A DNA stretch of 64,000 bases from Patescibacteria group bacterium. Its GTDB lineage: Bacteria > Patescibacteriota > Minisyncoccia > Phycocordibacterales > Phycocordibacteraceae. Made by a program: the position numbers and the translations under genes. Positions 62,770-63,116 of this stretch are shown here, one piece after another; the first letter of the stretch is position 1; each line of letters begins with the position of its first letter. The notes beneath the pieces were generated by a model. The model was not told where the DNA came from and did no database searches. It saw only the letters and a program-made list of their open reading frames with translations. The stretch spans positions 19,648 through 83,647 of the forward strand of contig JAJDCJ010000016.1 in the NCBI GenBank assembly GCA_029260935.1, written 5' to 3'.

Positions 62770-62796
62770 TTTCTGTATCGTGGGTGGCTACCGGGA
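62770..62796. repeat. partial duplicate of tRNA-His 3' end + trailer (GTTTTTCTGTATCGTGGGTGGCTACCGGGA)
   Basis: Matches 63031-63057 (intact tRNA-His 3' end and downstream T-run) with 2 mismatches; preceded by its own terminator hairpin CCGCCTTCGGCGG. Confidence 0.65.
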
Positions 62797-62984
62797 CGCT
62801 TCGCTATTTCACTCTTTGGAAACCCACGGTTTTCCAACGTTCGCTCCGCTCACTGCCTGTCACAGGTCTTTTTCTGCTGAAAAAGCCCGCGACCCCGCCT
62901 CACGCCGTCGCGCTCCGGCGTTCCGAATGTGCCCCGCACATTCTCACTTCACGGGGAACTTCCGTTCCCCGACCCCCTCCCGTT

Positions 62985-63010
62985 CAATTCCCAGTACCCA
63001 CGAAACAAAA
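62985..63010. repeat. degenerate inverted copy of tRNA-His 3' half (CGTTCAATTCCCAGTACCCACGAAAC)
   Basis: Approximate reverse complement of 63038-63066; the two arms flank the terminator hairpin 63010-63037. Confidence 0.5.
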
Positions 63011-63037
63011 AACTCCCCGCCATAGGGAGTTTTTTGT
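63010..63037. terminator. terminator hairpin AAAAACTCCCCGCCATAGGGAGTTTTTT downstream of tRNA-His
   Basis: Stem ACTCCC/GGGAGT with A/T runs on both sides. Confidence 0.5.
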
Positions 63038-63041
63038 TTCG

Positions 63042-63116
63042 TGGGTGGCTACCGGGAATTGAACCCGAATTGCAAGTTCCACAAACTTGAGTGTTAACCG
63101 TTACACCATAGCCACC
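63042..63116 (-). tRNA. tRNA-His (anticodon GTG) with genomically encoded G-1
   Basis: Hand-folded cloverleaf: acceptor G-1/GTGGCTA:TAGCCAC/C73, D-stem GTGT/ACAC, anticodon stem CAAGT/ACTTG, loop TTGTGGA, T-arm TCGGG-TTCAATT-CCCGG; 5' half identical to E. coli tRNA-His. Confidence 0.85.

What the first reader, a model, noticed from the sequence alone, without database searches (positions are those of the whole stretch)
62770..63066. tRNA-His 3' end duplicated about 260 bp upstream, with an additional inverted degenerate copy forming a long palindrome around its terminator
Seen in sequence: GTTTTTCTGTATCGTGGGTGGCTACCGGGA (62770-62796) repeats the tRNA-His 3' acceptor/T-arm strand plus trailer found at 63031-63057 (2 mismatches), and each copy is preceded by its own terminator hairpin. 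Between them lies an ORF-less 240-bp segment containing CTTTTTCTGCTGAAAAAG + GC-rich tract (about 75% identical over about 65 nt to the rplK-associated insert). At 62985-63010 there is also an inverted degenerate copy (CGTTCAATTCCCAGTACCCACGAAAC), so the tRNA 3' half, the terminator and this copy form an imperfect palindrome of about 80 bp. Duplication of a tRNA 3' end flanking foreign DNA is the classic footprint of integrase-mediated insertion; here the cargo is tiny, suggesting a miniature or decayed integrative element of the same family as at rplK.
Basis: partly seen in the sequence, partly recalled or inferred. Interest (0 to 1): 0.6.

Follow-up and report, generated by a model that had tools for sequence, protein, structure and literature searches.

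The report
Tiny hairpin element at tRNA-His end
A 233-bp non-coding, hairpin-rich piece of mobile DNA has inserted into the end of a tRNA-His gene and rebuilt that end from a copy. It belongs to a large family, apparently not yet described, of such elements that sit at gene ends throughout the small-genome Patescibacteria.

Summary
The tRNA-His 3' end is repeated 261 bp away (28 nt, 2 mismatches). An imperfect inverted copy and a hairpin form an 83-nt palindrome. The segment between shares a motif with the rplK insert.

It is an insertion. Related genomes have an uninterrupted tRNA-His followed by a plain terminator, exactly like the distal repeat and its hairpin here. It is not a decayed integrase island. 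It is a composite of two small structured modules: family B with a short family-A core nested inside.

Family A occurs more than 230 times in Patescibacteria MAGs and metagenomes. Of 177 evaluable copies, 89% abut the 3' end of a convergent gene, usually a tRNA. All copies share one architecture: direct copy of the target, conserved core, inverted copy of the target spanning the insertion point at a fixed offset, hairpin, then the target.

Stems covary strongly but with no G·U excess, which points to DNA-level hairpins. No Rfam family, virus hit or paper matches.

A conserved single-copy Y1/HUH (RAYT-like) gene in the window and across the same clades is a candidate mobilising enzyme. That link is unproven, and the integration chemistry is unresolved.

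The parts
62737..62769 (.). Native bidirectional terminator hairpin (hp0) of the original tRNA-His 3' end
   Evidence: Inverted repeat I5. DNA fold of 62730-62800. Same position and similar sequence as the terminator that follows the uninterrupted tRNA-His in L244.
62769..62796 (+). DR1: displaced original 3' end of tRNA-His (antisense strand) plus its trailer and T-run. Now a dead copy.
   Evidence: Direct repeat D2/D3. Context matches the empty sites L243 and L244.
62797..62858 (+). Family-B element, 5' part (CGCTTCGCTAT..GGAAACCCACGGTTTTCC..CTGCCT)
   Evidence: Same module in L011, L054, L005, L137, L141 and L051.
62859..62943 (+). Short family-A core (62859-62920) with its own small hairpin (62925-62943), nested inside the family-B element
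   Evidence: Covariance model R1: 36.2 bits, E = 1.4e-8. B copies without the nested piece join CTGCCT directly to TCCTCCACGGGG.
62944..62981 (+). Family-B element, 3' part (hairpin CACGGGGAAC..GTTCCCCG, then ACCCCCTCCC)
62982..63012 (+). X': imperfect inverted copy of the target. It runs 7 nt past the insertion point into the T-loop (GTTCAAT).
   Evidence: Inverted repeat I1. Same feature in every B and A copy.
63013..63029 (.). Centre of the new hairpin (CTCCC-CGCCATA-GGGAG). With the flanking A-run and T-run it forms a new bidirectional terminator for tRNA-His.
   Evidence: Inverted repeat I2. Fold z = -9.9.
63030..63057 (+). DR2: the trailer and the last 15 nt of the working tRNA-His gene
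63043..63115 (-). tRNA-His (GTG), intact
   Evidence: ARAGORN. Rfam tRNA, 60 bits.
63131..63338 (+). Second family-A insertion, at tRNA-Leu(GAG). DR 63131-63148 / 63321-63338. Core 63149-63289, split by an extra hairpin. X' 63289-63314. Terminator hairpin about 63304-63330.
   Evidence: D3, I3. (45.5 and 28.2 bits). Orthologous copy in L241. Empty in L243.
57775..58080 (+). Composite insertion at the 3' end of rplK. 45-nt perfect DR 57775-57819 / 58036-58080. Short family-A core 57820-57881. Module C 57985-58052.
   Evidence: D2. (35.8 bits). Module C also seen in L009, L032, L163, L094. In L238 and L240 the rplK-folA gap is only 43 and 15 nt.
8704..8886 (+). Fourth family-A copy, between a convergent glycosyltransferase gene and a rodA/ftsW-like gene. 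Its hairpin abuts the rodA stop codon. No direct repeat is recognisable.
   Evidence: (40.9 bits).
22588..23286 (-). Y1/HUH transposase-like (RAYT-like) gene. Candidate trans-acting enzyme; the link is inferred, not shown.
   Evidence: PF01797, 33.2 bits. NF047646, 36.6 bits, below its cut-off. More than 560 Patescibacteria homologues. Conserved synteny.

Best explanation
The region is one insertion of a small, non-coding, non-autonomous mobile DNA element into the T-loop of the tRNA-His gene.

SHOWN
- The element is a family-B module with a short family-A core nested inside it.
- It entered between tRNA positions 59 and 60.
- The old 3' end of the gene and its native terminator (62737-62796) were left 261 bp away.
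- The inserted DNA is followed by a fresh copy of that 3' end, so the tRNA gene stays intact.
- The insertion also brought an imperfect inverted copy of the target and a new hairpin. Together with the gene end these form a long palindrome that serves as a bidirectional terminator.
- The family is very large and confined to Patescibacteria.
- It sits almost always at the 3' end of a convergently oriented gene.
- In family A the inverted copy starts exactly 2 nt after the conserved core and spans the insertion point. In family B it spans the insertion point by 7 nt.
- Family-A insertion follows the motif T[T/G][T/C]G.

INFERRED
- The conserved cores fold as single-stranded DNA hairpins.
- They are handled in trans by a structure-specific single-strand DNA enzyme. 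The best candidate is the conserved single-copy Y1/HUH (RAYT-like) protein encoded at 22588-23286.
- This would make the elements a REP/BIME-like mosaic family.
- Pairing between the inverted copy and the target would set the cleavage point at a fixed distance from the core.
- The direct repeat would be made locally when the gene end is rebuilt.

Rough odds: mobile non-coding DNA element of this family, about 0.85. DNA-level hairpins, about 0.6. The Y1 enzyme as the mobiliser, about 0.35.
For: Insertion:
- L243 and L244 have tRNA-His followed directly by a plain terminator and the DUF2914 gene start, like DR1 plus hp0 here. L238 is also empty.
- L240 and L241 carry other family members at the same gene.
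- The rplK site is empty in L238, L239 and L240.

Family:
- More than 116 genome stretches and more than 120 metagenome stretches match.
- 18 of 20 tRNA isotypes are targets.
- 158 of 177 copies abut a convergent gene end.
- The new copy in tandem or nested arrays is always the one nearest the tRNA.

Geometry:
- Offset of exactly 2 nt in 63 of 65 copies.
- The 5' flank plus 2 nt predicted from X' is found downstream in 55 of 63 copies.
- The flanking base at -1 is G in 128 of 143 copies.
- DR1 often starts at the foot of a native terminator.

Structure:
- 88% of cells paired. 443 double-change cells versus 133 in shuffles (0 of 500 reach it). Covariation score 0.54 versus 0.07-0.13 for slid controls.
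- N:N' is Watson-Crick in 157 of 169 copies.
- G·U (59) is about equal to A·C (71).

Enzyme:
- PF01797 at 33.2 bits, with an HUH motif and a Tyr motif.
- More than 560 homologues in the same clades, mostly 1-3 member sequences per cluster. The gene neighbourhood is shared with L245, and partly with L247 and L248.

No Rfam family. No viral hits.
Against: - No near-identical copies occur in the window. The four family-A cores are diverged, so nothing points to a recent burst.
- The Y1 gene is flanked by a different small palindrome (AAGGAC-N-GTCCTT), not by A, B or C elements.
- From my own knowledge, classic REP/REPIN systems are not known to create target-derived direct and inverted repeats.
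- How each copy gets an inverted copy matched to its own target is unexplained.
- X' is only 78% identical to a perfect inverted copy even where the direct repeats are perfect.
- The 3' half of the tRNA-Leu element is about 95% identical (my reading of the two sequences, not a computed alignment) between genomes whose DUF2914 proteins are 56% identical. That suggests selection for a host function, or recent transfer, rather than pure selfishness.
- No data on transcripts or free intermediates are available.
Confidence: 0.5

Rival explanations
1. Folded-hairpin attachment site used by a tyrosine recombinase acting in trans, in the style of CTX phage or integron attC. In single-stranded form, the inverted copy, hairpin and direct copy fold into a duplex that mimics the target. 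One strand exchange integrates the element, and replication fixes it. This is the nearest workable version of the first reader's integrase idea.
For: - Topology is the same as an integrated CTX-type element or an integron cassette. There is a direct repeat at both ends, and an imperfect inverted copy spanning the crossover point near one end.
- Direct repeats can be perfect while the inverted arm is imperfect.
- Tandem arrays exist.
- From my own knowledge (Williams 2002), the T-loop and the acceptor end are the sublocations that tRNA-targeting integrases use.
- Stems show strict Watson-Crick pairing.
Against: - No tyrosine recombinase lies next to any copy or among the 40 window ORFs scanned against Pfam.
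- Targets differ in sequence: 18 tRNA isotypes and protein-gene ends. A sequence-reading recombinase would have to accept all of them, and each element would need a pre-matched arm.
- Repeat length ranges from 4 to 45 nt.
Confidence: 0.15
2. A family of structured small-RNA genes transcribed from the plus strand. The RNA would have a closing helix made of the 5' flank and the inverted copy, a conserved two-hairpin core, and its own terminator. The 5' segment would be antisense to the neighbouring tRNA end. Copies would spread by duplication or retro-insertion.
For: - Strong covariation and invariant single-stranded stretches.
- A terminator follows the core.
- The tRNA-Leu copy is conserved between distant relatives.
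Against: - No G·U excess on either strand, and almost no one-sided changes.
- No room for, or conservation of, a promoter. The tRNA-Leu copy starts 33 nt from the tRNA-His 5' end.
- Three unrelated cores (A, B, C) share the same flank architecture.
- Presence is patchy among relatives.
- No Rfam family matches.
Confidence: 0.1
3. Not mobile as a unit. The direct and inverted copies would be by-products of template switching or fold-back synthesis at replication forks stalled at tRNA genes and terminator hairpins (palindrome growth). The conserved cores would be protein-binding DNA sites kept by selection.
For: - The duplicated stretch often runs from the foot of the native terminator to the insertion point.
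- hp0 itself looks like an ancestral flank extended into a palindrome.
- Hairpin stems evolve by compensatory change.
- Pairing is strictly Watson-Crick, as expected from copying.
Against: - The 2-nt offset is exact in 63 of 65 copies.
- There is a target motif, T[TG][TC]G.
- The same 86-nt core appears at hundreds of unrelated loci and nested inside other copies. That requires the core itself to move.
Confidence: 0.1
4. Decayed remnant of a larger integrase-bearing genomic island or prophage that once sat in tRNA-His.
For: Direct repeat of the tRNA 3' end.
Against: - The interior consists entirely of intact members of conserved small families.
- No ORF or pseudogene remnant is present.
- The core is absent from 2.9 million viral contigs.
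- Only 2 of about 240 loci have a recombinase nearby.
Confidence: 0.03

Closest known systems
REP / BIME / REPIN sequences with their RAYT (Y1 HUH) transposase
   Same: - Short extragenic hairpin units, mosaic and nested.
- Placed after gene 3' ends and between convergent genes, often acting as terminators.
- Non-autonomous.
- The host carries a single-copy, vertically inherited Y1/HUH gene.
- Stems are kept strictly Watson-Crick.
   Different: - The core is a conserved 86-nt two-hairpin unit starting GTCACAG, not a 20-40-nt palindrome preceded by GTAG.
- Copies carry target-derived direct and inverted repeats.
- Copies insert inside tRNA genes while rebuilding them.
- The Y1 gene here is flanked by a different palindrome.
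tRNA-targeting integrative elements (tyrosine-integrase islands and prophages)
   Same: - Insertion in the T-loop or at the acceptor end.
- The 3' end of the gene is restored.
- The old 3' end is left as a direct repeat.
   Different: - No integrase and no coding cargo. Size is 100-260 bp.
- Many different targets within one family.
- An inverted target copy is present.
- Repeat length varies from 4 to 45 nt.
CTX-phage attP hairpin and integron attC sites
   Same: An imperfect inverted repeat that folds in single-stranded DNA, spans the crossover point, and lies next to one end of the integrated unit.
   Different: - The arms are not conserved recombinase-binding boxes. They copy whatever the target is.
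- No cognate recombinase has been found.
IS200/IS605 family and its palindrome-associated miniature derivatives
   Same: - Single-strand hairpins.
- Insertion 3' of a short motif.
- Y1 HUH chemistry.
- Cleavage sites set by base pairing next to a hairpin foot.
   Different: - Those elements make no target duplication.
- They use a fixed 4-5-nt guide, so all copies share one target.
- Here the paired segment is 6-35 nt long and specific to each copy.
Rickettsia palindromic elements and yeast mitochondrial GC clusters
   Same: - Small GC-rich, hairpin-forming insertions in an AT-richer small genome.
- Mechanism unknown.
- Tolerated inside or next to genes.
   Different: - Different sequence families.
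- To my knowledge, no rule of direct plus inverted target copies has been reported for them.

Membership tests
Integrase-mediated tRNA-targeting integrative element | Direct repeat of the tRNA 3' segment at both ends, with an intact tRNA | tested here: met
Integrase-mediated tRNA-targeting integrative element | Integrase gene or its remnant inside or beside the element | tested here: not met
   No credible ORF lies in 62797-63029. No recombinase family is enriched near 227 copies. None is found among the 40 window ORFs scanned against Pfam.
Integrase-mediated tRNA-targeting integrative element | One fixed attachment sequence per element family | tested here: not met
   Targets include 18 tRNA isotypes and protein-gene ends, each with its own matched repeats.
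MITE (miniature derivative of a DDE transposon) | Terminal inverted repeats at the two ends of the element | tested here: not met
   The inverted repeat lies between the element interior and the target, not between the element ends.
MITE (miniature derivative of a DDE transposon) | Short target-site duplication of fixed length | tested here: not met
   Exact repeat lengths run from 4 to 45 nt or more.
REP/BIME/REPIN with RAYT | Dispersed extragenic hairpin units at gene ends, in mosaic arrangement | tested here: met
REP/BIME/REPIN with RAYT | Single-copy RAYT (Y1 HUH) gene in the genome | tested here: inconclusive
   PF01797 scores 33.2 bits, above its cut-off. The NCBIfam RAYT model scores 36.6 bits, below its cut-off of 80. 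Synteny and mostly 1-3 member sequences per cluster fit a domesticated gene.
REP/BIME/REPIN with RAYT | RAYT gene flanked by the same repeats it mobilises | tested here: not met
   No A, B or C element lies next to the gene in the window or in L245-L248. It is flanked by a different palindrome that is not dispersed.
REP/BIME/REPIN with RAYT | Conserved GTAG-type tetranucleotide 5' of the palindrome | tested here: not met
   The family-A core starts GTCACAGATAATT and follows T[TG][TC]G.
IS200/IS605 miniature derivatives | Insertion 3' of one fixed tetra- or pentanucleotide, without duplication | tested here: not met
   There is a motif preference, but direct repeats of 4-45 nt are present.
Known structured RNA family (Rfam 15) | Match to a curated covariance model | tested here: not met
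   No family other than tRNA matches, for the window inserts or for canonical copies.
Integron attC / CTX-type folded attP | Imperfect hairpin whose stem contains the crossover point | tested here: met
   X' spans the insertion point by 2 nt in family A and 7 nt in family B.
Integron attC / CTX-type folded attP | Conserved recombinase-binding boxes and a cognate tyrosine recombinase | tested here: not met
   The arms copy the local target rather than a conserved box. No recombinase was found.
Mobile element in general | Presence/absence at orthologous sites, and repeated insertion at the same target | tested here: met
   Empty and filled tRNA-His, tRNA-Leu and rplK sites among relatives. Tandem and nested copies.

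The most novel reading that the evidence does not exclude
These elements would be a natural, retargetable DNA-insertion system guided by base pairing. The inverted segment next to the conserved core would act as a 6-35-nt guide that pairs with the target strand. A structure-specific single-strand enzyme, perhaps the Patescibacteria-wide Y1/HUH protein, would cut at a fixed distance from the core: 2 nt in family A and 7 nt in family B. The gene end would be rebuilt by copying. This would be a long-guide analogue of the 4-nt guide of IS608, or a DNA counterpart of the bridge RNA of IS110 elements.
Probability: 0.12. Interest if true: 0.85.

Novelty: new variant of a known kind. Interest (0 to 1): 0.68.

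Why it matters
- Patescibacteria have tiny genomes that are thought to be almost free of mobile DNA. This window nonetheless has four or five of these elements in 64 kb, and the family is found across the Paceibacteria-type lineages.
- The elements reshape the ends of essential genes (tRNAs, rplK, rodA) without breaking them, and they supply those genes with new bidirectional terminators.
- The strict geometry is not a hallmark of any element class that I know. It consists of a direct copy, a core, an inverted copy spanning the insertion point at a fixed offset, a hairpin, and then the target. It may point to an integration mechanism not yet worked out, possibly tied to a conserved HUH enzyme.
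- Practically, the repeats break short-read assemblies. The Logan contig ends exactly at the rplK repeat.
- The partial tRNA copies and palindromes the elements leave behind could in principle confuse automatic annotation. I did not test this.

Tried and rejected
- Rfam, at gathering and permissive thresholds, on the window inserts and on seven loci with canonical copies. It found only tRNAs and spurious miRNA-like hairpin hits.
- Viral contigs. Two patterns gave no hits.
- Genome scan with the neighbouring DUF2914 protein. It found no close relative in the species-representative set. Relatives were reached through the protein search instead.
- Clustering of 1163 ORFs near 227 copies. Only housekeeping genes recur. 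An apparent serine-recombinase cluster was two real genes plus spurious ORFs overlapping the element.
- Search for empty sites among the fetched loci by left-flank BLAST. It gave none; the one candidate also carried the element.
- Kissing-loop idea (P2 loop CUGC pairing with hairpin loop GCAG). Inspection of copies showed it is not consistent, so I dropped it.
- HDV-like or hammerhead ribozyme at the GUC start. The required pairings and core motifs are absent, so I dropped it.
- The identical 261-bp spacing of the tRNA-His and rplK repeats. I judge it a coincidence. The interiors are built differently, and other copies show spacings of 124-330 bp.
- A supposed second 5S rRNA. This was my own coordinate artefact, from a reverse-strand index, and Rfam does not support it.
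- A weak model hit at 15087-15146 (E = 0.01). It looks like an ordinary terminator.
- Literature. Six searches, including the literal core sequences, found no description of the family.
- Single-sequence RNA folds of the four window copies gave mixed z-scores (-0.2 to -4.9) and were not informative on their own.
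Full report
**What is in the sequence**

tRNA-His(GTG) lies on the minus strand at 63043-63115 and tRNA-Leu(GAG) at 63336-63420. The 28 nt at 63030-63057 hold the last 15 nt of tRNA-His plus its trailer and T-run. They recur at 62769-62796 with two mismatches, both in the T-run. 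The spacing is 261 bp.

Just before the working copy lies an imperfect inverted copy (62982-63012, 77% over 31 nt). It surrounds a short hairpin, which gives an 83-nt palindrome. Folded as DNA this is -36.2 kcal/mol, z = -9.9. A separate hairpin (62737-62769) precedes the distal copy.

The motif CTTTTTCTGCTGAAAAAG plus the GC-rich tract matches the rplK insert at 76.7% over 60 nt.

**It is an insertion, and the distal copy is the original gene end**

I fetched homologues of the neighbouring DUF2914 protein, which are 54-60% identical, together with their contigs.

- In L243 and L244, tRNA-His is followed by a plain bidirectional terminator and then the DUF2914 start codon. The covariance model finds no element there.
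- The window's distal copy plus hairpin hp0 has the same layout and similar sequence: ..aactataacg - hairpin aaaccgcc..ggcgg - T-run - tRNA end.
- L238 is also empty.
- L240 and L241 carry different family members at the same tRNA-His, each with its own perfect direct repeat of 20-21 nt.
- tRNA-Leu is empty in L243 and L244. It is filled in the window and in L241 with an orthologous element.
- The rplK-folA gap is 43 nt in L238 and 15 nt in L240, against 324 nt in the window.

Presence is therefore patchy, and the same gene was hit independently by different elements.

**Anatomy of the tRNA-His insert**

The insert is a composite of two modules.

- The outer module is family B: 62797-62858 and 62944-62981. 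It also occurs in L005, L011, L029, L051, L054, L137 and L141.
- B copies insert after ..GGA in the antisense T-loop, between tRNA positions 59 and 60.
- They end in GTTCGAT/GTTCAAT followed by the complement of the flank. The inverted copy therefore runs 7 nt past the insertion point. It follows the local T-loop variant: GTTCAAT here and GTCCGAT in L051.
- Nested inside B, at a point where other B copies are continuous, is a short family-A core with its own small hairpin (62859-62943; model R1 at 36.2 bits).

**Family A**

This gave 227 unique copies. Almost all are in Patescibacteria MAGs: Nomura-, Zambryski-, Lloyd-, Kaiser- and Yonathbacteria, and Paceibacterota.

The core has this layout: GTCAC-AGATAATT, hairpin P1, TTTCC-GCGAC-CCC, G-N-C, TC, hairpin P2, TCC, G-N'-C.

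- On 80 copies, 88% of cells pair. There are 443 double-change cells against 133 in shuffles (0 of 500 shuffles reach this). The covariation score is 0.54 against 0.07-0.13 for slid controls.
- The single pair N:N' is Watson-Crick in 157 of 169 copies, using all four pair types.
- G·U (59) is no commoner than A·C (71) or other mismatches, and one-sided changes are almost absent. This is unlike typical structured RNAs. It fits hairpins that must form in DNA, or on both strands.

The model finds four copies in the window, all on the plus strand: 8704-8836, 57820-57881, 62859-62920 and 63149-63289.

**Architecture shared by all copies**

- Of 177 evaluable family-A copies, 118 lie just downstream of a convergent tRNA gene. 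Another 40 lie next to the stop codon of a convergent protein gene, mostly 111-133 nt from the core start.
- 18 of 20 tRNA isotypes are targets.
- In 63 of 65 copies with at least 4 nt of exact pairing, the sequence that begins exactly 2 nt after the core is the reverse complement of the 5' flank.
- In 55 of 63 copies, the flank plus the 2 nt predicted from that segment is found again downstream, at a median of 69 nt. The inverted copy therefore reproduces the uninterrupted target.
- The flank ends in G in 128 of 143 copies, with consensus T[T/G][T/C]G.
- About one third of copies sit in the T-loop, between positions 55 and 56. About 45% sit at the acceptor end.
- Direct repeats range from 4-6 nt at the acceptor end to 10-22 nt in the T-loop, and 45 nt at rplK.
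- In several long-repeat copies the distal repeat starts at the foot of a native terminator (L015, L017, L028, L079), as it does in the window.
- Tandem and nested arrays exist, and the newest copy is always the one nearest the tRNA.

A third module, C, has a hairpin with loop TTACA, then CAGTAC, then the hairpin ACCTTTTGGAT..ATCTCAAAAGGT. It occurs in the rplK insert and in several other genomes. Part of the 45-nt rplK repeat is therefore element sequence, which shows that the distal repeat was copied after that module was in place.

**What it is not**

- No Rfam family matches.
- The core is absent from 2.9 million viral contigs.
- No integrase, DDE transposase or reverse transcriptase is enriched near copies.
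- None is present among the 40 window ORFs scanned against Pfam.
- Six literature searches found nothing.

**A candidate enzyme**

The Pfam scan turned up a 233-aa Y1/HUH transposase-like protein at 22588-23286.

- It scores 33.2 bits on PF01797. It has an HUH motif (PNHFHL) and a tyrosine motif (AYVALNP).
- Its best NCBIfam match is REP-associated tyrosine transposase, but below that model's cut-off.
- It has more than 560 homologues. Those that carry a source name are almost all Patescibacteria, and most clusters hold 1-3 member sequences.
- It sits in a gene neighbourhood that is shared with L245 and partly with L247 and L248. That is the behaviour of a domesticated RAYT rather than an insertion sequence.
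- It is flanked upstream, inside the reading frame and at its 3' end by a small palindrome, AAGGAC-N-GTCCTT. That palindrome is not dispersed elsewhere. A, B and C elements do not flank the gene.

The link to the elements is therefore plausible but unproven.

**How it most likely works**

Shown:
- The element inserts at the 3' end of a gene on the opposite strand.
- The gene end is rebuilt from a copy.
- The old end and its native terminator are displaced.
- A new hairpin plus the inverted copy gives the gene a long bidirectional terminator.

Inferred:
- The cores act as single-stranded DNA hairpins recognised by a structure-specific enzyme supplied in trans.
- Pairing of the inverted segment with the target fixes the cut at 2 nt (family A) or 7 nt (family B) from the core.

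Unresolved:
- How each copy acquires an inverted segment matched to its own target.
- Why that segment is only 78% faithful even where the direct repeats are perfect.

That last fact fits an arm that is imperfect by design, as in folded attachment sites. It would also fit rapid selection against perfect long palindromes. A purely copy-based origin, through template switching at a stalled fork, explains the boundaries at terminator feet. It does not explain the exact offsets or the movement of the cores.

**Verdict**

It is a Patescibacteria-wide family of mosaic hairpin mini-elements at gene ends, apparently not yet described. Its closest relatives in kind are REP/BIME elements and tRNA-targeting integrative elements, but it has a distinctive target-copying architecture.

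Noticed in passing
window 22588-23286 (-), with palindromes at 23087-23110 and 23306-23329: Single-copy Y1/HUH (RAYT-like) gene, conserved with similar neighbouring genes in the three homologue loci examined. A small palindrome, AAGGAC-N-GTCCTT, sits upstream of the gene, inside the reading frame about 170-200 nt from the start, and (in L245, L247, L248) at the 3' end. It is not dispersed elsewhere in 1.7 Mb of related loci.
   Followed up: partly
window 10992-14750 (-): The 23S rRNA gene spans 3759 nt against a 2925-position Rfam model, so it carries about 830 nt of insertions. A 5S gene follows at 10809-10914. No 16S gene is in the window.
   Followed up: no
window 52960-52983 and 53414-53437: A perfect 24-nt palindrome, CCTACTATGATTAATCATAGTAGG, occurs twice. 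The two copies exactly bracket a Trp-repressor-like gene (52998-53411, minus strand), in an operator-like arrangement.
   Followed up: no
window 47623-51045 (-): A class I aminoacyl-tRNA synthetase (IleRS-like, 1141 aa) has a histidine-phosphatase domain (His_Phos_1, aa 498-668) inserted in the middle. A stand-alone His_Phos_1 gene lies at 43262-43789.
   Followed up: no
window 57985-58052; L009, L032, L163, L094, L093, L182: A third conserved module, 'C'. It has a covarying hairpin with loop TTACA, then CAGTAC, then the hairpin ACCTTTTGGAT..ATCTCAAAAGGT. It is inserted in different contexts, including inside family-A cores right after CGCG.
   Followed up: partly
window 58036 and 63222 (ends of Logan contig L001): A public short-read contig of the same organism is identical to window 58036-63222. 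One end falls exactly at the start of the rplK direct repeat and the other inside the tRNA-Leu element. The elements therefore break assemblies.
   Followed up: yes
window 62737-62769 compared with L241 5976-6010: The native hairpin hp0 looks like an ancestral flank (AACGTACAAAA in L241) extended into a palindrome by about 34 added nt. This hints that palindromes also grow in these genomes without any core element.
   Followed up: no
L243 2102-2800: In one relative, an ORF with a faint LAGLIDADG hit lies between the L19 gene and the tRNA-Leu/tRNA-His pair. Both of those tRNA genes lack elements there.
   Followed up: no
many loci and window 63039-63043, 63333-63337: tRNA genes in these genomes do not encode CCA. 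The discriminator base is typically followed by CAC(A/G), and this trailer is the left landmark of most direct repeats.
   Followed up: partly
window 56274-56543 and 38504-38806: A small GIY-YIG nuclease-like ORF lies between thyA and the dCTP deaminase gene. A Gp49/HigB-like toxin gene is also present.
   Followed up: no
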